DNA from: a virus
Lineage: Duplodnaviria; Heunggongvirae; Uroviricota; Caudoviricetes
DNA length: 16,180 nt
Reading direction: 5' to 3' (one strand)
Virus record (IMG/VR): IMGVR_UViG_2529292886_000014
Coordinates: 1 to 16,180 of that record
Shown here piece after piece: positions 1,231 to 14,719 of the stretch (position 1 is the stretch's first letter; each line of letters begins with the position of its first letter). The notes beneath the pieces are model-generated. The model saw nothing but the letters and a program-made list of their open reading frames with translations. It ran no database searches and was not told where the DNA came from. Position numbers and translations under genes: made by a program.

Positions 1231-1594
1231 TTTTTTTCGTGTTTTTTCAGTATGCGCATACTGGATATGCGAACAGATACAACGTGCAACAATGAGCAAC
1301 AATGTGGAACAACTACGAACAAGAGGCGAAAAAGCGTACGGATTTATAAGTGGCTGATTTTTAATGTGTTGCTGGTTTTTTATACACTAGCGAATCACTC
1401 TTTAAAGAGCGAGAAAAAAGGCATGAAACAATATTTTATGCCTTTGTATTAACATGAATTTAAAATATTTTATTCTTACTGTTTCATTTTCTGTAAATCA
1501 TACATCCTCAGTATTTGCCATTCATCACTCTAGCGGGAACAATACGACACAATAAGACACCTGATGACTCTTTAAGAAACGAAAGGGGGCAATA

Positions 1595-3317: not shown

Positions 3318-3617
3318 ATGAGAACATATTTATCTGGCTTGACTGCCAGCGGTTATGCACACCCTAAAATTATCCCCGGCGCTATTTATCTGGATAAGAA
3401 CGGTAACAGAGTAACGGTAAAAGAACTGATGTTTGACCGTGTGTATTTTATTCGTGATGGCTATTCATTTCATAGTTCGCTGAACGTGGAGATCTTTATT
3501 AGCAGATTCCGGCGGGAAATCCCGACTTCCAGAAATAACCATGTGTCACGTGTGGATGTGGATAAAAAACTACAGGAACTGAAAAACATGATTGCCTCGT
3601 GGAGAGAGCAGAAATGA
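3318..3617 (+). CDS. Hypothetical protein (99 aa)
   Basis: ORF starting 7 nt after the previous stop. Its stop overlaps the primase start (ATGA at 3614-3617). No family recognised. Confidence 0.55.
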   Translation: MRTYLSGLTASGYAHPKIIPGAIYLDKNGNRVTVKELMFDRVYFIRDGYSFHSSLNVEIFISRFRREIPTSRNNHVSRVDVDKKLQELKNMIASWREQK

Positions 3618-5431
3618 AAAAAGCGCCAAATTTAAAACACCAGCCACGTGACAAAATGACGGAAGTCATCATTTTTGCGGGTAGTGATGCGTGGGCACAT
3701 GCGAAGCAGTGGCAGGAACAGGACGGGCGACTGGCTGGCGATAACGTGCCACCTGTCTGGCTTGGAGAGCAACAACTTGCCGAACTGGACAACCTGCAAA
3801 TCGTACCGGACGGACGCTATCGCGTGCGTCTCTACCAGGCGGGGTTATTGCGTCCTGGGCTTGTTAATACCATCGGGCAGAAACTGGCAGCGGCAGGTGT
3901 CAGGGATGCTGATTATTATCCTGAAGGAATGCACAGCCAGAAACGGGAGAACTGGCGCGAATATCTGGAACGTGAGCGGGGAGAGCTGGCGGAAAAGAAA
4001 AAGGTAGTTGAACTGCCTGTAAAGAAAAAAGAGCGGGTAAAAGACGATAACGCTTCATCACTGGCGCTTAACCAGATGGGAGCAAGTCAACGCGGCGAAG
4101 TTCTCCTGGCACATTATGGCGGGGAACTGGCGATTCATGCCGACTCTGACACTGTTCACCATTACAACGGCGTTATATGGGAGCCGGTTCAGGATAAAGA
4201 ATTACAGCGAGCTATGGCACAGATTTTCATTGATGCGGAGATCAGCTATTCGCAGAACGCCATTAAATCGGCGGTCGATACCATGAAGTTAAGTTTGCCT
4301 GTAATGGGGAATACAGCCCGTAACCTGATTGGATTCAGTAACGGGGTATTTGATACCAGAACAGGTAATTTTCGGGAGCATAACAAAAACGACTGGTTGT
4401 TAATTGCCAGTGAATTACCTTTCAGCCCACCAGCAGAGGGGGAAACGCTGGCAACACATGCGCCGAATTTCTGGAAGTGGTTACGCCGTTCGGTGGCTGA
4501 GAATGACCGCAAGGCGGATCGCGTACTGGCTGCATTATTCATGGTGCTGGCGAACCGGTACGACTGGCAGTTATTCATTGAGGTAACAGGTCCAGGGGGA
4601 AGTGGTAAAAGCGTGATGGCGGAGATTTGCACCATGCTGGCGGGTAAGGCCAACACAGTATCGGCAAGCATGAAGGCGCTGGAAGATGCAAGGGAACGCG
4701 CGTTAGTGGTTGGCTTTTCGCTGATTATCATGCCGGATATGACCCGCTACGCTGGTGATGGGGCAGGGATTAAGGCTATTACAGGCGGTGACAAGGTGGC
4801 AATTGACCCGAAACACAAAGCCCCCTACTCAACGCGTATTCCGGCAGTAGTGCTGGCGGTTAACAATAACGCCATGTCATTCAGTGACCGCAGCGGGGGG
4901 ATCTCACGTCGTCGGGTGATATTCAATTTTTCGGAAGTTGTACCGGAGAACGAACGCGATCCAATGCTGGCGGAAAAAATAGAAGGTGAGCTGGCGGTAG
5001 TGATTCGCCATCTGCTTACACGGTTTGCTGACCAGGACGAAGCCAGACGCCTGTTATATGAGCAGCAGAAATCTGAAGAAGCACTGGCGATAAAGCGAGA
5101 GGGGGATTCGCTGGTGGACTTCTGCGGCTATCTCATGGCGTCGGTAATGTGTGATGGCCTGTTAGTGGGTAATGCTGAAATTGTACCATTCAGCCCACGC
5201 AGGTATCTCTATCATGCCTATCTGGCTTATATGCGGGCACATGGGTTTGGTAAACCTGTAACACTGACGCGCTTCGGTAAAGATATGCCGGGGGCAATGG
5301 CGGAATATGGCAGGGAGTATATGAAACGGAAAACGAAGCACGGTTTGCGTTCAAACGTGACACTGACGGAGGAATCAGAAGACTGGATGCCATCATGTGT
5401 ATCGGTCACTAATGACGATAGCAAAAATTAA
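3614..5431 (+). CDS. P4 alpha-like primase-helicase (replication initiator)
   Basis: About 605 aa from the ATG at 3614 (SD GGAGAGAG at 3601-3608); the track ORF begins at an upstream GTG (3599). Walker A motif GPGGSGKS in the C-terminal half, consistent with the P4-family primase C-terminal NTPase domain (recalled). Immediately followed by TGTTCACC iterons, the sequence bound by P4 alpha. Confidence 0.85.
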   Translation: MKKAPNLKHQPRDKMTEVIIFAGSDAWAHAKQWQEQDGRLAGDNVPPVWLGEQQLAELDNLQIVPDGRYRVRLYQAGLLRPGLVNTIGQKLAAAGVRDADYYPEGMHSQKRENWREYLERERGELAEKKKVVELPVKKKERVKDDNASSLALNQMGASQRGEVLLAHYGGELAIHADSDTVHHYNGVIWEPVQDKELQRAMAQIFIDAEISYSQNAIKSAVDTMKLSLPVMGNTARNLIGFSNGVFDTRTGNFREHNKNDWLLIASELPFSPPAEGETLATHAPNFWKWLRRSVAENDRKADRVLAALFMVLANRYDWQLFIEVTGPGGSGKSVMAEICTMLAGKANTVSASMKALEDARERALVVGFSLIIMPDMTRYAGDGAGIKAITGGDKVAIDPKHKAPYSTRIPAVVLAVNNNAMSFSDRSGGISRRRVIFNFSEVVPENERDPMLAEKIEGELAVVIRHLLTRFADQDEARRLLYEQQKSEEALAIKREGDSLVDFCGYLMASVMCDGLLVGNAEIVPFSPRRYLYHAYLAYMRAHGFGKPVTLTRFGKDMPGAMAEYGREYMKRKTKHGLRSNVTLTEESEDWMPSCVSVTNDDSKN

Positions 5432-5442
5432 ACTTATGGAAT

Positions 5443-5667
5443 AACTGTTCACCACTGTTCACCCTGTCATAAATATCTTTTATATCAGTATATTATAGGG
5501 TGAACAGTTATTTATGAACTGTTCACCAAACTATTCACTGTTCACCTTTTTGATTGTTTATTGAGCTTCAAGGGTGAACAGTGGTGAACAGTTGGTGAAT
5601 AGTTTTTGTGAAACTGTTCACCCATTAACATTATGAATTAAAAGATAAAATATCAAAAGGTGAACAG
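5443..5667. repeat. Iteron array, putative origin of replication (P4 ori/crr-like)
   Basis: About 10 copies of the core TGTTCACC / GGTGAACA (often extended to AACTGTTCACC) in both orientations within 225 bp of AT-rich DNA: 5443-5453, 5454-5463, 5499-5509, 5517-5527, 5536-5546, 5573-5582, 5583-5593, 5594-5604 (degenerate), 5612-5622, 5659-5667. Confidence 0.75.
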
Positions 5668-5718
5668 GTGAAGGGTTAAAACGCAAAAATTTTAATTTAC
5701 TGCTGTGAGATAAAGCCT

Positions 5719-5964
5719 ATGACAGCGAAGCACACAAAAAAATCACAATCGCACGCCCTTGATTTGACGGAACACTGGTTAAGGGTGTCGATAAAAATCA
5801 TCGACCGCAACGCCGGGGAAGGATATGCGAAAGCACATCCCGAACTAATAAGCGCATTCATGACCACGGCGGCGGCAAACTTTGCCACGCTGACGGAACG
5901 GGAGATTGCCGAAGCGGAACAGGTAACAACCATCAACGTTAAAACCGGAGAGGTGGAATCATGA
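5719..5964 (+). CDS. Hypothetical protein (81 aa)
   Basis: ORF between the iteron origin and ssb. Its stop overlaps the ssb start (ATGA), suggesting translational coupling. No family recognised. Confidence 0.5.
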   Translation: MTAKHTKKSQSHALDLTEHWLRVSIKIIDRNAGEGYAKAHPELISAFMTTAAANFATLTEREIAEAEQVTTINVKTGEVES

Positions 5965-6371
5965 CAGCACAGATAGCCGCTTACGGGCGGCTGGTGGACG
6001 ACCCGCAGGTAAAACAGACCAGCAAGGGCACACCGATGACGCTGGCGCGTATGGCGGTCCCCCCTCCGTGCAGCCAGGCAGATGACGGAACGGCGACGAT
6101 GTGGTTATCCGTCCTGGCATTTGGCAGACAGGCCGAAGCACTGGCAAGGCACCGCAAGGGTGAACTCCTGAGCGTGGCGGGTAACATGCAGATCAGCCAG
6201 TGGACCGGACAGAACGGGGAAACACTGCAGGGTTATCAGGTTATTGCAGACAGCGTAATCAGTGCCCGCGCGGCACGTCCTGGCGGGAACAGACGCAAAA
6301 CCACAGGCACACAGGGTAATCAGCCACCAGCGGGAGGCGATGACCCTTACGGTGACGGTATTCCGTTCTGA
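5961..6371 (+). CDS. ssb: Single-stranded DNA-binding protein (SSB-like)
   Basis: SD GGAGG at 5948-5952. OB-fold-like pattern G.L..DP.V...G...W..V..FG..AE.....RKG...G...W....G that parallels E. coli SSB, a Gly/Pro/Gln-rich linker, and the C-terminal tail ...DDPYGDGIPF (compare SSB ...DDDIPF). Confidence 0.75.
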   Translation: MTAQIAAYGRLVDDPQVKQTSKGTPMTLARMAVPPPCSQADDGTATMWLSVLAFGRQAEALARHRKGELLSVAGNMQISQWTGQNGETLQGYQVIADSVISARAARPGGNRRKTTGTQGNQPPAGGDDPYGDGIPF

Positions 6372-6381
6372 GGGGGTGACG

Positions 6382-6654
6382 ATGGTACATGACCGCATAG
6401 CGGAAGAACTCGAGGCGAAAGGCTTTTACCGGAGGGCGGCGGCGCGATGGGGTGAAGTCATGCAGCTGGTGGAGACAGACAAGGAACGGCATCACATCAC
6501 GATGCGACGGCTGGAATGTTGCAGGAAGGCACAGAGGCCACCGGAGCCACCGGATAATTACGGAGACCTGAAAAAGGCAGTCGATCGCACTTATGCCGAA
6601 ATGGGGATAGATGGTGCTGGTGATGAAATATGGCGCAATTACCAGGACAGCTAA
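6382..6654 (+). CDS. PerC-family-like small transcriptional regulator (90 aa)
   Basis: ATG at 6382 preceded by SD GAGGGGGTG. The N-terminal motif AEELEAKGFYRRAAARWGEVM resembles the PerC/Pch family signature as I recall it (unverified). The track ORF 6262..6654 overlaps ssb and is judged N-terminally over-extended. Confidence 0.5.
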   Translation: MVHDRIAEELEAKGFYRRAAARWGEVMQLVETDKERHHITMRRLECCRKAQRPPEPPDNYGDLKKAVDRTYAEMGIDGAGDEIWRNYQDS

Positions 6655-6660
6655 TCACAC

Positions 6661-6684
6661 AGCCGGAGAAATCCGGCTTTTTTT
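6661..6684 (+). terminator. Rho-independent terminator
   Basis: AGCCGGA-GAAA-TCCGGCT followed by TTTTTTT, directly after the stop at 6654. Confidence 0.7.
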
Positions 6685-6779
6685 GCACCAGTTGAAACGG
6701 TATGGCGCATTACCGGGTTTTCGTCACGGTCTGGCATAGTTACTATCTGAAACAAACAGACACAACAGAGGAAAAAACA

Positions 6780-7004
6780 ATGCCGATGAAATTTGATGAG
6801 ATATTAAAACAGCGTGATAAATACCATGCTGACAACATGGAGACGATGAGCATCAATGATTACCGCGCATTCCTGGAGACGGGCGCACTGATTGAAAAGG
6901 ATCAGCATGGTTTTGTTAGATGTGCTCTATCCGGTGAAATGCTGGCGGTAAATCCTGAACAGATAGATGCAATGATAGAATTTCTGAAAGGGATCAGGGA
7001 CTGA
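6780..7004 (+). CDS. Hypothetical small protein (74 aa) in a terminator-bracketed cassette
   Basis: ATG at 6780 preceded by SD GAGGAAAA. The track ORF begins at an upstream ATG (6702) with no SD. Flanked by the two near-identical terminators. Confidence 0.5.
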   Translation: MPMKFDEILKQRDKYHADNMETMSINDYRAFLETGALIEKDQHGFVRCALSGEMLAVNPEQIDAMIEFLKGIRD

Positions 7005-7013
7005 GCACGCATA

Positions 7014-7036
7014 CAGCCGGAGCAATCCGGCTTTTT
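7014..7036 (+). terminator. Rho-independent terminator (near-duplicate of 6661-6684)
   Basis: AGCCGGA-GCAA-TCCGGCT followed by TTTTTGTCATTTTTTG. Same stem as the upstream terminator, different loop. Confidence 0.7.
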
Positions 7037-7056
7037 GTCATTTTTTGTAAATTATT

Positions 7057-7083
7057 TGTTCGTGGTTGTTCCACGTTGTTCAC
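7057..7083. promoter_or_regulatory. Dyad element TTGTT-CGTGG-TTGTT-CCACG-TTGTT upstream of the head operon
   Basis: CGTGG (7061-7065) and CCACG (7071-7075) are reverse complements, separated and flanked by TTGTT. A half-copy TTGTTCCACGTTGTT recurs at 14581-14595. Confidence 0.35.
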
Positions 7084-7263
7084 TGACAGGATCGGCATAT
7101 TTTACCCGAACTGAATCATGATTATTCTCGCCCGTGGTGCCAGGACGCTGGGGCCATTTTTCCCGCCTGTTAATGTGTTCACCAATATTCATTCATTACC
7201 AGGCGGGAAAGCAATCGGTGCGTTTACTGATTTCCTTATGAAAAAGCGTTGAGTTTTTGCCGC

Positions 7264-7300
7264 GTCCTGGAGTTCCTTACTTAACCCCAGGACTTTTTTT
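7264..7300 (+). promoter_or_regulatory. Hairpin plus T-run abutting the capsid gene start (possible attenuator or RBS-sequestering structure)
   Basis: GTCCTGG (7264-7270) and CCAGGAC (7287-7293) form a 7-bp stem with a 16-nt loop, followed by TTTTTTT (7294-7300) and the capsid ATG at 7301. The only SD-like AGGA lies inside the right arm of the stem. Confidence 0.3.
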
Positions 7301-8458
7301 ATGCCGAGAATAATCGAATTACGCCAGCAGAAAACCGCCATTAAAAATCAGATGCGCGACATGCTGGAGAACGCGGAAAAAGAAAACCGCAGCCTTAACG
7401 ATGCAGAGGGCGCAAAATTTGACGAATTACGCGCTAAAGCTGAATCCCTCGATAAAGACATTTCCCGCCTTGAAGCCATTGCAGACGAAGAGCGCAGCAA
7501 GCCAGGTAAAAGCAGCCAGACCACTGACCCGGCAGAACTCCGCAACTACATCCTGACAGGTGAAACCCGCGCATTAAGTACAGGTGTCCCCGCTGATGGT
7601 GGTTATACCGTTATCCCTGAACTGAACACCGAAATCATGCGAATGCTGGCGGATGAGTCCACCATGCGCCGCATCTGTACCGTGAAAAAAATCAGCAGCA
7701 ACGAGTTTAAGCAGCTTGTTTCCGCTGGCGGTGCGGTCGTTAACCACGGTGAAGAGGGTAAGGCACGCGAACAGACCAGCACCCCGCAGATTAACGAGGT
7801 GAGCATTAAGCTGTATCCGGTCTATGCGTACCCGCGCACCACACAGGAAATCGTGGATTTTTCCGATGTGGACATCCTTTCATGGCTGACGGGCGAGATT
7901 GGCGACACCTTCACGGAAACCGAAGAAAGTGATCTGGTTGTGGGCGACGGTGACAAAAAAGCAAAAGGTTTTTTATCCGTACCCCGTGCAGAGAAGAACG
8001 ACAAAGAACGTGATTTCGGAACGTTGCAGGTTATCAAGCCCGTTGATGATCTTGCCTGGACATCTGCGGACCCGCTGATCGATCTGAAATTTGCATTACG
8101 TAAAAAATACCGCAAGAACGCGGTATGGGTGGTTAACTCCACGACGGCGGCAAAACTCCAGAAGGTGAAGAATGCGAACGGGGATTATATATGGCGTGAC
8201 CGTTTACAGGCGGGTGATCCTGACACATTGCTGGGCCTTCCGGTCGAATATCTGGAGTTTATGCCGGATAACGTTATTGCCCTGGGCGACTTTAAACGCG
8301 GTTACTACATCGTTGATCACGAAACAGGTGTTCGCACCAGACCGGACAACCTGACAGAACCAGGATTCATCAAAATTTTCACGCAAAAATATTTAGGCGG
8401 TGGCGTGGTGGATTCGAACGCGATCAAGATTCTGGAACTGCCACAGGACGACGATTAA
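7301..8458 (+). CDS. Major capsid protein, HK97 fold, with N-terminal coiled-coil delta/scaffold-like domain
   Basis: 385 aa. The N-terminal ~100 aa are charged and helical (RQQKTAIKNQMRDMLENAEKENRSLNDAEGAKFDELRAKAESLDKDISRLEAIADEE). The C-terminal part LLGLPVEYLEFMPDNVIALGDFKRGYYIVDHETGVRTRPDNLTEPGFIKIF fits the HK97-family capsid pattern (recalled). Confidence 0.9.
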   Translation: MPRIIELRQQKTAIKNQMRDMLENAEKENRSLNDAEGAKFDELRAKAESLDKDISRLEAIADEERSKPGKSSQTTDPAELRNYILTGETRALSTGVPADGGYTVIPELNTEIMRMLADESTMRRICTVKKISSNEFKQLVSAGGAVVNHGEEGKAREQTSTPQINEVSIKLYPVYAYPRTTQEIVDFSDVDILSWLTGEIGDTFTETEESDLVVGDGDKKAKGFLSVPRAEKNDKERDFGTLQVIKPVDDLAWTSADPLIDLKFALRKKYRKNAVWVVNSTTAAKLQKVKNANGDYIWRDRLQAGDPDTLLGLPVEYLEFMPDNVIALGDFKRGYYIVDHETGVRTRPDNLTEPGFIKIFTQKYLGGGVVDSNAIKILELPQDDD

Positions 8459-14250: not shown

Positions 14251-14719
14251 GACCATGAAACTACGGAAACTACCCGTAGTTTGGGTAGTAAGAGTAACAC
14301 CCAGATTTTGGGGCTTACTCGTGATACCCAAATTTGGGGTATCGGTGGCAACCATAACGACTTTCGTTACGGTTGATGCTTTTACCCCATTGGGGGAAAG
14401 GTATTACGATAATCATAACACCTACCGAACAGGTAAAACCCACCAGCCTGATTAACAGTTAACCGGAAAAAAAACCAGGTGGCCCCGTTATGGGGATCCC
14501 CATATCGACATTAACGCCCCTCATGAATTGGTGTGCTTCCCCCTGGAAAGATTACCCGCCTGTATATTTCTTGTGTCTATTTGTTCCACGTTGTTTCATA
14601 CAGTGCACCGAACGGTGTAGTTAATGGTGTAGTTAATTTGCTGTTTTTAGCACTTTTTGTAGTGTGAGTTTTTTAATTAAATTAATGGGTTACTTTGCTG
14701 TGGTGATAAAAGGACATAT

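What the first reader, a model, noticed from the sequence alone, without database searches (positions are those of the whole stretch)
6382..7047. PerC-like regulator and a small gene in a cassette bracketed by near-identical terminators
Seen in sequence: the 90-aa ORF at 6382-6654 has an N-terminal motif (AEELEAKGFYRRAAARWGEVM) that I recall as typical of PerC/Pch-family activators. It is followed by terminator AGCCGGA-GAAA-TCCGGCT-T7, a 74-aa ORF with its own SD (6780-7004), and a second terminator with the same stem (AGCCGGA-GCAA-TCCGGCT). Established knowledge: PerC/Pch proteins are horizontally acquired activators of virulence loci in pathogenic E. coli. Inference: the duplicated terminator marks a moron-like cargo insertion, and the element may carry regulators that act on host genes.
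Basis: partly seen in the sequence, partly recalled or inferred. Interest (0 to 1): 0.5.

Follow-up and report, generated by a model that had tools for sequence, protein, structure and literature searches.

The report
PchE regulator and conserved satellite gene
This stretch of an E. coli phage satellite (a capsid-forming PICI like EcCIEDL933) carries the already-known PerC-family regulator PchE. Next to it is a small, uncharacterised gene that sits between two copies of one terminator, and related satellites have or lack that gene through recombination at the repeated terminator.

Summary
ORF 6382-6654 is a full-length PerC-family protein (Pfam PF06069, 147 bits). Two GNRA-loop terminators (6661-6678, 7015-7032) lie inside a 27-nt direct repeat (25/27 identical, 354 bp apart) that brackets a 74-aa ORF with its own SD.

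The window is an EcCIEDL933 / O-island 51 (CP-933C)-type capsid-forming PICI beside phoQ, and the PerC gene is the orthologue of pchE. The literature reports that PchE represses csgD/curli and has little effect on LEE, so this part is known.

The 354-bp unit is a real presence/absence polymorphism. Six related E. coli elements keep one hybrid terminator and lack the ORF. One of them has a PerC protein identical to that of the cassette-bearing EDL933 element.

The "foreign moron cargo" reading is not supported. The 74-aa protein belongs to a family (PHROG 1957; no Pfam; confident AF2 model with no fold match). That family sits just upstream of a capsid gene in the satellites of at least six other genera sampled and in all 78 informative IMG/VR loci.

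In E. coli the variable slot is the one that holds PerC (PerC, ProQ/FinO or nothing). The terminator also marks the junction to alternative right arms. The function of the small protein is unknown.

The parts
5719..6371 (+). Upstream genes that appear to form one operon with perC: an 81-aa PHROG 1231 protein (5719-5964) and an SSB (5961-6371).
   Evidence: PHROG 1231 E=5e-50 and PF00436 SSB E=5e-15. The SSB stop lies 10 nt before the perC ATG.
6382..6654 (+). PerC-family regulator, PchE orthologue (90 aa, pI 5.9).
   Evidence: PF06069 at 147 bits over the full length. It differs from the EDL933 O-island 51 copy at 10 of 90 residues (~89% identity) and sits in the same synteny and the same roxA-phoQ site. 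A database member is named PchE (P0051). dN/dS is 0.15-0.46 for most pairs.
6656..6685 (+). Direct-repeat copy 1 (6656-6682), containing intrinsic terminator T1: stem-loop 6661-6678 with a GAAA loop, then a U7 tract.
   Evidence: D10; -12.6 kcal/mol.
6686..6779 (+). 94-nt leader of the small ORF with SD GAGG at 6768-6771. No convincing sigma-70 promoter.
   Evidence: Sequence. The promoter scan found 0 sites in 5400-7400. The leader is 44.7% GC against 50.8% for the element.
6780..7004 (+). 74-aa acidic protein (pI 4.9) of the PHROG 1957 family. This is a conserved gene of capsid-forming PICIs with unknown function.
   Evidence: PHROG 1957 E=9e-42 and no Pfam match. Homologues at 38-50% identity occur across Enterobacterales, always upstream of the capsid gene. 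The AF2 model has pLDDT 93 and topology H-H-H-E-E-E-H. No fold relative was found in PDB or BFVD. dN/dS is 0.08-0.24.
7010..7037 (+). Direct-repeat copy 2 (7010-7036), containing intrinsic terminator T2: stem-loop 7015-7032 with a GCAA loop, then U5. It is also the breakpoint to alternative right-arm modules.
   Evidence: -13.9 kcal/mol. In L004/L023 homology to the window ends right after this terminator, and a lambda-like capsid module follows.
7046..7300 (+). Leader of the packaging operon. It holds a conserved 25-35-nt motif (7046-7080), a 17-nt inverted repeat (7159-7175 / 7194-7210), and a terminator-like hairpin plus U7 (7264-7300) that abuts the capsid ATG at 7301.
   Evidence: (D7, I3, I18). 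The leader is conserved in both cassette-bearing and cassette-free elements.

Best explanation
The segment is the junction between the replication-side arm and the packaging arm of an EcCIEDL933 / O-island 51-type capsid-forming PICI inserted beside phoQ.

(1) perC. The gene at 6382-6654 is the pchE orthologue. It is the last gene of a PHROG 1231 - SSB - perC block. Per the literature, this small PerC-family regulator is expressed from the uninduced island and modulates host genes: csgD/curli go down, flhDC goes up, and there is little effect on LEE. It occupies an accessory slot that holds PerC, a ProQ/FinO protein or nothing in other E. coli capsid-forming PICIs. Terminator T1 ends its transcript (inferred).

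(2) The 354-bp unit. It consists of a 94-nt leader, a 74-aa ORF and a second copy of the same terminator. The ORF is a backbone gene of capsid-forming PICIs, not foreign cargo. Its family sits directly upstream of the capsid gene (with an accessory slot in between) in satellites of at least six other enterobacterial genera.

(3) The terminator. The 23-27-nt terminator sequence acts as a shared module-boundary linker. Recombination within it deletes or transfers the small-ORF unit; cassette-free elements keep one hybrid copy. It also joins the left arm to alternative right arms (inferred from breakpoints).

(4) The small protein. The 74-aa protein is acidic and has no DNA-binding signature. It most likely works by protein-protein contact during the satellite's induced cycle, in control of the packaging operon or in exploiting the helper phage. 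This last step is inference only.
For: Identity of the element:
- int, alpA, DUF4222, D5-type primase, SSB, HK97 capsid, S78 protease, portal, head completion protein, connector, HNH, TerS and TerL are present, with phoQ at the right end.
- The order matches EDL933 between roxA and phoQ. That locus is O-island 51 / CP-933C, which carries pchE (PMC3378721), and is the capsid-forming PICI prototype (bioRxiv 10.1101/2022.09.08.507074).

PerC:
- Pfam match and the database name PchE.
- Phenotypes are in PMC6265319 and PMC7369912.
- Phage-borne PerC homologues are only 33-42% identical.

Indel polymorphism:
- Alignment A1 and the junction sequences show six cassette-free elements. Each has the T1-type left flank, the GCAA loop and the T2-type right flank.
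- Cassette-free L020 differs from cassette-bearing EDL933 by one synonymous site in perC.
- Cassette state is interleaved in the identity matrix of the flanking leader.
- Counts: the cassette is in 538 of 5426 E. coli genomes. This capsid leader is in 418 genomes. The cassette is contiguous with that leader in 215 genomes.

Backbone status of the small ORF:
- Ten full-length loci from five other genera, plus L016 (carrying the Kosakonia-named protein P0177), show replicase/ori, then the small ORF, then 0-2 variable genes, then the capsid, with no PerC on record.
- In IMG/VR, 78 of 80 loci have a capsid gene downstream. The other two are cut short or have no hit.
- A second E. coli allele of 82 aa (45% identical) lies after PerC, after ProQ/FinO, or directly after SSB.

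Module boundary:
- In L004/L023, homology ends immediately after T2.
Against: - The small-ORF unit is AT-richer (43-45% GC) than perC (55%), SSB (61%) and the element as a whole (51%). This is a classic moron signature.
- Roughly a third to a half of elements with this capsid leader lack the unit, so it is dispensable at least for maintenance.
- The E. coli 74-aa allele is an outlier, only 38-43% identical to the homologues in other genera. This could reflect replacement rather than vertical descent.
- The direction of the event (loss or gain) cannot be decided from these data.
- No promoter was found for the small ORF.
- No function could be assigned by Pfam, PADLOC, PDB or BFVD.
- EcCIEDL933 is reported not to interfere with its helper phages (10.1101/2022.09.08.507074), which argues against an interference role.
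- The genome counts are inflated by clonal O157:H7 sampling.
Confidence: 0.75

Rival explanations
1. One reading: the 354-bp unit is a moron. A foreign gene with its own terminator was inserted downstream of perC, duplicating the terminator, and it serves the host or virulence rather than the satellite.
For: The unit is a presence/absence polymorphism bounded by repeats. Its GC content is lower than its neighbours'. It has its own SD and terminator. Within E. coli the cassette is less diverged (dS 0.02-0.07) than the adjacent perC (dS 0.09-0.19) between the same elements, which fits recent spread.
Against: The protein family sits at the same position in capsid-forming PICIs of at least six other genera, and in 78 of 80 IMG/VR loci, all next to a capsid gene. 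It was found in no phage record. A second E. coli allele is translationally coupled to, or directly follows, the upstream gene with no terminator between them. No promoter was detected.
Confidence: 0.15
2. PerC/PchE is primarily the satellite's own regulator, for example an activator of the adjacent packaging operon, and its effects on host genes are side effects.
For: It lies immediately upstream of the late operon in hundreds of E. coli elements. PHROG relatives are annotated as transcriptional activators. The capsid leader contains conserved repeats that could be operators.
Against: PerC is absent from every non-E. coli capsid-forming PICI examined and from some E. coli ones with the same kind of packaging module. 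It is found with two unrelated right arms whose leaders differ. pchE is expressed in uninduced cells and falls on SOS induction (PMC6265319), the opposite of a late activator.
Confidence: 0.07
3. The 74-aa ORF is not a real gene, and the region between the terminators is a non-coding leader or small RNA.
For: It is short, has no Pfam family, and no promoter was found.
Against: dN/dS is 0.08-0.24. Protein-level homologues at 38-50% identity exist in many genera. AF2 gives pLDDT 93 from a 49-sequence alignment. There is no Rfam match.
Confidence: 0.02

Closest known systems
PchE (group 3 PerC homologue) of E. coli O157:H7, on O-island 51 / CP-933C = EcCIEDL933
   Same: Same Pfam family over the full length. 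The proteins differ at 10 of 90 residues (~89% identity). Same neighbours (SSB upstream; small ORF and capsid downstream) and same chromosomal site beside phoQ.
   Different: There are ten amino-acid differences, and the window's element has a D5-type primase where EDL933 has a DUF927 replicase. No function was tested here. The published phenotypes (csgD/curli repression, flagellar up-regulation, little LEE effect) come from strain PA20 and from over-expression (PMC6265319, PMC7369912).
EPEC PerC and EHEC PchA/B/C (LEE1/ler activators)
   Same: Same Pfam family, with the conserved N-terminal AEELEAKG.YRRAA.RW motif. All are horizontally acquired.
   Different: PerC is plasmid-borne (pEAF) and PchA/B/C are on lambdoid prophages, not on a satellite. 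Phage-borne relatives are only 33-42% identical over about 50-85 residues. PchE-type proteins are reported not to activate LEE1 (Porter 2005, as cited in PMC11773190 and PMC6265319). The related EcCIMP1_025 represses LEE (PMC11773190).
Capsid-forming PICIs (prototype EcCIEDL933)
   Same: Integrase, alpA, a replication module, an HK97-type capsid/protease/portal/adaptor/HNH/TerS/TerL operon, no tail or lysis genes, and a size of about 14.5 kb.
   Different: The papers read here do not discuss perC, the 74-aa gene or the duplicated terminator. An unnamed 'hypothetical gene 1792' of the packaging module could not be mapped to any gene here.
Phage morons (Hendrix: a gene with its own promoter and terminator inserted between conserved genes)
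   Same: A short unit with its own terminator, lower GC, and presence/absence between close relatives.
   Different: No promoter was found. The gene family is conserved and syntenic in the satellite lineage across genera, so it behaves as backbone. The repeat is a shared boundary sequence that is also used at other module junctions.
Conserved boundary or linker sequences proposed to guide modular exchange in lambdoid phages (from general knowledge, not checked in a paper here)
   Same: The same 23-27-nt sequence lies at several alternative junctions: perC|small ORF, perC|capsid leader, small ORF|HK97 leader and small ORF|lambda-like module. The breakpoints fall within it or at its edge.
   Different: Here the linker is also a functional-looking intrinsic terminator. 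Recombination at it has not been shown experimentally.

Membership tests
PerC family (Pfam PF06069) | Sequence match to the family HMM above the curated threshold, over the whole ~90-aa protein | tested here: met
   147.3 bits against a cutoff of 22.6, residues 1-89 on profile positions 1-89 of 90. PHROG 994 E=9e-47.
PerC family (Pfam PF06069) | Transcriptional activation of LEE1/ler, the activity that named the family | not testable with these tools
   The literature reports little or no LEE effect for PchE-type proteins (PMC6265319; PMC11773190 citing Porter 2005). This feature does not hold for the subgroup.
PchE orthologue group (O157:H7 group 3 perC homologue) | Orthology by identity, synteny and insertion site with the O-island 51 gene | tested here: met
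   10 differences in 90 residues from the EDL933 copy. Same SSB-perC-small ORF-capsid order and phoQ flank. pchE is assigned to OI-51 in PMC3378721. A database member is named PchE.
Capsid-forming PICI | Integrase, alpA-type regulator and replication module, plus its own capsid, protease, portal, adaptors, HNH, TerS and TerL | tested here: met
   Pfam hits for every one of these genes.
Capsid-forming PICI | No tail or lysis genes; size about 10-18 kb | tested here: met
   The ORF list and Pfam show none between int (position 1) and phoQ (14720), and the element is about 14.5 kb. Small ORFs of unknown function were not excluded individually.
Capsid-forming PICI | Helper-phage induction and packaging into its own small capsids | not testable with these tools
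   Shown for EcCIEDL933 only (10.1101/2022.09.08.507074).
Moron | Present or absent between otherwise closely related elements | tested here: met
   Six cassette-free and seven cassette-bearing loci were compared. L020 against EDL933 differ by one synonymous site in perC.
Moron | Own promoter and own terminator | tested here: inconclusive
   The terminator is present. No sigma-70-like promoter was found in 5400-7400. Candidate -10 hexamers are weak, and one is not conserved.
Moron | Base composition distinct from neighbouring genes | tested here: met
   43.1% GC against perC 54.9%, SSB 60.8% and the element at 50.8%. The adjacent capsid leader is also 43.9%.
Moron | Foreign to the backbone of the element family | tested here: not met
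   The family is syntenic in capsid-forming PICIs of at least six other genera and in 78 of 80 IMG/VR loci.
Rho-independent terminator | GC-rich hairpin followed directly by a U tract | tested here: met
   7-bp stems with 5 G-C pairs, GNRA loops, then U7 or U5; -12.6 and -13.9 kcal/mol. Termination in vivo was not tested.

The most novel reading that the evidence does not exclude
The 74-82-aa PHROG 1957 protein may be a hallmark factor of enterobacterial capsid-forming PICIs with a previously unseen fold. It would act in the satellite's induced cycle, for example by switching on or timing the packaging operon or by engaging a helper-phage protein. The GNRA-loop terminator next to it would double as a conserved recombination linker that lets co-resident satellites swap or drop modules.
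Probability: 0.35. Interest if true: 0.5.

Novelty: new member of a known kind. Interest (0 to 1): 0.3.

Why it matters
The headline feature, a PerC-like regulator on a satellite, is already described. It is pchE on O-island 51 / EcCIEDL933, so this window adds only a variant allele.

Two modest points are new.
- The small gene next to pchE is a conserved, uncharacterised signature gene of capsid-forming PICIs across Enterobacterales. It is an obvious knockout target in a well-developed experimental system.
- A single short terminator sequence recurs at alternative module junctions and brackets a unit that comes and goes. This gives a concrete, testable picture of how these satellites reshuffle. 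It also suggests how a regulator expressed in the uninduced state (pchE) is kept insulated from the packaging operon.

Tried and rejected
- Nucleotide search of 5700-7300 and protein search of the small ORF against 50,697 phage records found no match. The block is specific to satellites.
- A genome-contig scan with the single PerC protein found nothing. I did not repeat it with an alignment.
- Rfam gave no hit at gathering scores, and only chance-level hits at E<=1 in 6300-7400.
- The single-sequence AF2 model of the small protein was unusable (pLDDT 51). The 49-sequence alignment gave pLDDT 93.
- PADLOC gave no hit for PerC, the small ORF or two neighbouring accessory genes.
- The 1383-aa repeat protein P0066, which hit the small ORF in the representative search, was judged a spurious repeat match.
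- Porter et al. 2005 (PMC543544) is not held. Its results are quoted second-hand from PMC11773190 and PMC6265319.
- 'Hypothetical gene 1792' of the EcCIEDL933 packaging module could not be mapped to any gene here because figures are not held.
- I considered an extended -10 promoter (TGgCATAGT, 6732-6740) for the small ORF and rejected it. The TG and the hexamer vary among otherwise conserved copies.
- I considered whether loop identity in the cassette-free elements (always GCAA) settles insertion against deletion. It does not: with about three independent events the probability under random crossover is roughly 8%.

Full report

Yes. The sequence shows an ATG at 6382 and a stop at 6652-6654 (90 aa). 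It then shows AGCCGGAGAAATCCGGCT at 6661-6678 followed by seven T, an ATG at 6780 preceded by GAGG, a stop at 7002-7004 (74 aa), and AGCCGGAGCAATCCGGCT at 7015-7032 followed by five T.

- The terminator scan reports both hairpins. They fold at -12.6 and -13.9 kcal/mol, with z-scores of -4.1 and -4.7. Both loops are GNRA tetraloops.
- The similarity reaches beyond the hairpin. A 27-nt direct repeat at 6656-6682 and 7010-7036 is 25/27 identical, with the copies 354 bp apart.
- The 18-nt pattern is expected 0.01 times in a shuffled window, and none of 200 shuffles gave two copies.
- The 90-aa protein matches Pfam PerC end to end at 147 bits.

**2. What is the element?**

The window encodes the following, in order:
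- a P4-type integrase (1-1230), AlpA, a DUF4222 protein and a D5-type primase;
- an iteron-rich origin (about 5430-5650);
- a PHROG 1231 protein, an SSB, PerC and the small ORF;
- an HK97 capsid, S78 protease, portal, head-completion and connector proteins, HNH, TerS and TerL;
- phoQ on the opposite strand.

E. coli O157:H7 EDL933 has the same order between roxA and phoQ. That locus is O-island 51 / CP-933C, said to carry pchE (PMC3378721). It is also EcCIEDL933, the prototype capsid-forming PICI (bioRxiv 10.1101/2022.09.08.507074). The window's PerC differs from the EDL933 protein at 10 of 90 residues, and one database member of the cluster is named PchE. No phage record holds this DNA. Phage PerC homologues are only 33-42% identical.

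**3. What is known about this PerC subgroup?**

- PerC-family genes are a recognised feature of Gram-negative PICIs (PMC6092414, PMC11773190).
- In strain PA20, pchE (the 'group 3' perC homologue) is expressed without induction and falls 6-7-fold on SOS induction. Over-expressed, it represses csgD, curli and biofilm independently of ler (PMC6265319). It also raises flhDC and, about two-fold, ler (PMC7369912).
- pchD and pchE have little effect on LEE (PMC6265319). The EcCIEDL933 and EcCICFT073 PerC homologues had no effect on LEE1 fusions (Porter 2005, quoted in PMC11773190).
- The regulator is therefore known. 'Activator of virulence loci' is not the best description of this subgroup.

**4. 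Is the unit between the terminators variable?**

Yes.
- In the alignment of five E. coli loci, strain WP3-W18-CRE-03 goes directly from the perC stop codon into a single terminator and then the capsid leader.
- Six cassette-free loci (L002, L017-L020, L022) all have the same structure. It consists of the left flank of T1, AGCCGGAG, the GCAA loop and the right flank of T2. Seven cassette-bearing loci have both copies.
- Cassette-free L020 encodes a PerC protein identical to that of cassette-bearing EDL933, with one synonymous difference.
- Cassette-free L019 has the same capsid protein accession as EDL933.
- In the capsid-leader identity matrix the two states are interleaved, for example L020 (free) against L021 (bearing) at 98.9%, and L018 (free) against L013 (bearing) at 98.9%.
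- So the state has changed more than once, or it is moved by recombination between co-resident elements. O157 genomes carry up to three such loci.

Counts among 5426 complete E. coli genomes:
- the unit is in 538 genomes, at 591 places;
- this capsid leader is in 418 genomes;
- the unit is contiguous with that leader in 215 genomes.

The remaining copies of the unit precede a different right arm. These counts are descriptive only, because O157:H7 clones dominate the collection.

**5. Is the unit foreign cargo?**

The evidence says no.
- The 74-aa protein has only near-identical E. coli relatives in a word-indexed search. An exhaustive HMMER search and a profile search found a family of 75-105-aa proteins, 38-50% identical. 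It occurs in Klebsiella, Raoultella, Citrobacter, Enterobacter, Serratia, Pectobacterium, Erwinia, Kosakonia and others. None of them has a Pfam domain or a name.
- In every full-length genomic context read, the gene follows the replicase and origin. These contexts were Klebsiella, Serratia, Citrobacter, Pectobacterium, one unnamed assembly, and a contig carrying the Kosakonia-named protein. After the gene come 0-2 variable genes on either strand, then an HK97 capsid operon. None of these elements has a PerC gene on record.
- Among 80 IMG/VR loci, 78 have a capsid gene downstream and the other two are truncated or have no hit. The 40 E. coli-type copies always have PerC 127-130 bp upstream wherever upstream sequence exists. 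The 40 copies of other types never have PerC, and they lie 256-2240 bp before the capsid gene.
- E. coli also has a second allele of 82 aa, 45% identical, in 135 genomes. It follows PerC with no terminator between them (L104), follows SSB directly (L105), or overlaps the end of a ProQ/FinO-family gene (L106).
- The slot between SSB and the small gene is therefore the accessory slot, and PerC is one of its occupants. The small gene is part of the backbone.
- The E. coli 74-aa allele is the most divergent member, but so are the E. coli capsid and portal proteins. This fits descent with the lineage.

**6. What supports the moron reading?**

- The unit is AT-richer than its upstream neighbours: 43% against 55-61%.
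- It is dispensable for maintenance.
- It is less diverged between elements than the adjacent perC. This could mean recent spread.

I keep this reading as a rival at about 15%.

**7. What does the terminator do?**

Its sequence predicts an efficient intrinsic terminator. pchE is expressed from the uninduced island, so a terminator right after it would keep that transcription out of the packaging genes. This is inference.

The same 23-27-nt sequence lies at four kinds of junction:
- perC | small-ORF leader;
- perC | capsid leader (cassette-free elements);
- small ORF | HK97 leader;
- small ORF | a lambda-like capsid / decoration / TerS module, in O145 and O157 elements at the same roxA-phoQ site.

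In the last case homology to the window stops immediately after the terminator. I therefore read the terminator as a shared boundary sequence at which modules are exchanged or lost. The direction of the original event, duplication by insertion or by unequal exchange, cannot be recovered from these data.

**8. What is the small protein?**

- With a 49-sequence alignment AlphaFold2 gives a confident model: pLDDT 93, pTM 0.76, three short helices, a three-stranded sheet and a C-terminal helix.
- The protein is acidic (pI 4.9) and shows no DNA-binding motif.
- My best guess is a protein-binding factor that acts in the induced cycle. I hold this at about even odds.
- The published statement that EcCIEDL933 does not reduce helper titres argues against a role in interference.

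**9. Verdict**

- The PerC call is right, and it is already known as pchE.
- The presence/absence prediction is right.
- The interpretation of which gene is cargo is most likely reversed.
- Novelty is low to moderate. This is a new allele of a known regulator on a known satellite type. It comes with an uncharacterised but conserved satellite gene and a recurring terminator-linker that merit a simple knockout and Term-seq experiment.

Noticed in passing
window 1298-1322 (-), 7056-7080 (+), 14571-14595 (+): A 25-nt motif (TTGTTCGTGGTTGTTCCACGTTGTT) occurs three times: between int and alpA (inverted, 2 mismatches), immediately after terminator 2 at the head of the capsid leader, and near the right end beside phoQ (5 mismatches). 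EDL933 has copies at the same three relative positions. The divergent E. coli elements L104 and L105 also have it right after the terminator of their small ORF. Serratia L009 (about 6620-6660) has a related TTTTGTAAATTATTTGTCCG... stretch. It may be a binding site for Int, AlpA or another regulator that links att, alpA and the packaging operon.
   Followed up: partly
window 7150-7300: The capsid leader holds a 17-nt inverted repeat (7159-7175 / 7194-7210; the fold is -25.4 kcal/mol, z = -3.6). It also holds a terminator-like hairpin, GUCCUGG...CCAGGAC plus U7 (7264-7300, -14.1 kcal/mol), that ends at the capsid ATG, and its 3' arm contains the only SD-like AGGA. That makes three terminator-like hairpins within 640 bp upstream of the capsid gene, which suggests attenuation, antitermination or translational control of the packaging operon.
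   Followed up: partly
window 3318-3617 (+): The DUF4222 protein (99 aa) belongs to the family of RgdR (ECs1581), the LEE/T3S regulator of O-island 51. The EDL933 copy has the RGD motif at residues 20-22. The window's copy is only 31% identical and has PGA there, so RgdR-like activity cannot be assumed.
   Followed up: partly
L104 3403-3978; L105 3291-3979; L106 1518-2749: In other E. coli capsid-forming PICIs the slot between SSB and the small ORF holds a 93-aa PerC (61% identical to the window's), nothing, or a 176-aa ProQ/FinO-family protein whose end overlaps the small ORF. A satellite-borne ProQ/FinO RNA chaperone may be of interest in itself.
   Followed up: partly
L006 6299-7072 (-); L009 6302-6529 (-); L014 6269-6610; L015 6449-7051 (-); L016 6404-8027: In capsid-forming PICIs from other genera, a variable accessory slot lies between the small ORF and the capsid gene (256-2240 bp in the IMG/VR loci). 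Examples are a very AT-rich 257-aa gene on the opposite strand in Klebsiella, and a DUF4365 protein plus a 373-aa protein in the contig that carries the Kosakonia-named protein P0177. The two that were tested had no PADLOC match.
   Followed up: partly
window 6611-6739 (+): RefSeq annotates a 42-aa ORF that overlaps the end of perC and spans terminator 1. It appears as 'hypothetical protein' or as a 'trigger factor' pseudogene in many genomes. It is probably a spurious call.
   Followed up: no
L001 (E. coli 90-3040) compared with the window: The 5700-7300 block is 99.7% identical in an element inserted at a different site (between cspD/yljB and clpS). That element has a different integrase and a longer alpA-like gene, which indicates a swap of the int-alpA module. 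In that copy the primase and TerL are annotated as frameshifted.
   Followed up: no
window 5430-5650: This is a replication-origin-like region between the primase and the PHROG 1231 gene. It has multiple GGTGAACAG iterons arranged as direct and inverted repeats around an AT-rich core. Klebsiella and Serratia elements have the analogous iteron field directly upstream of their small ORF.
   Followed up: no
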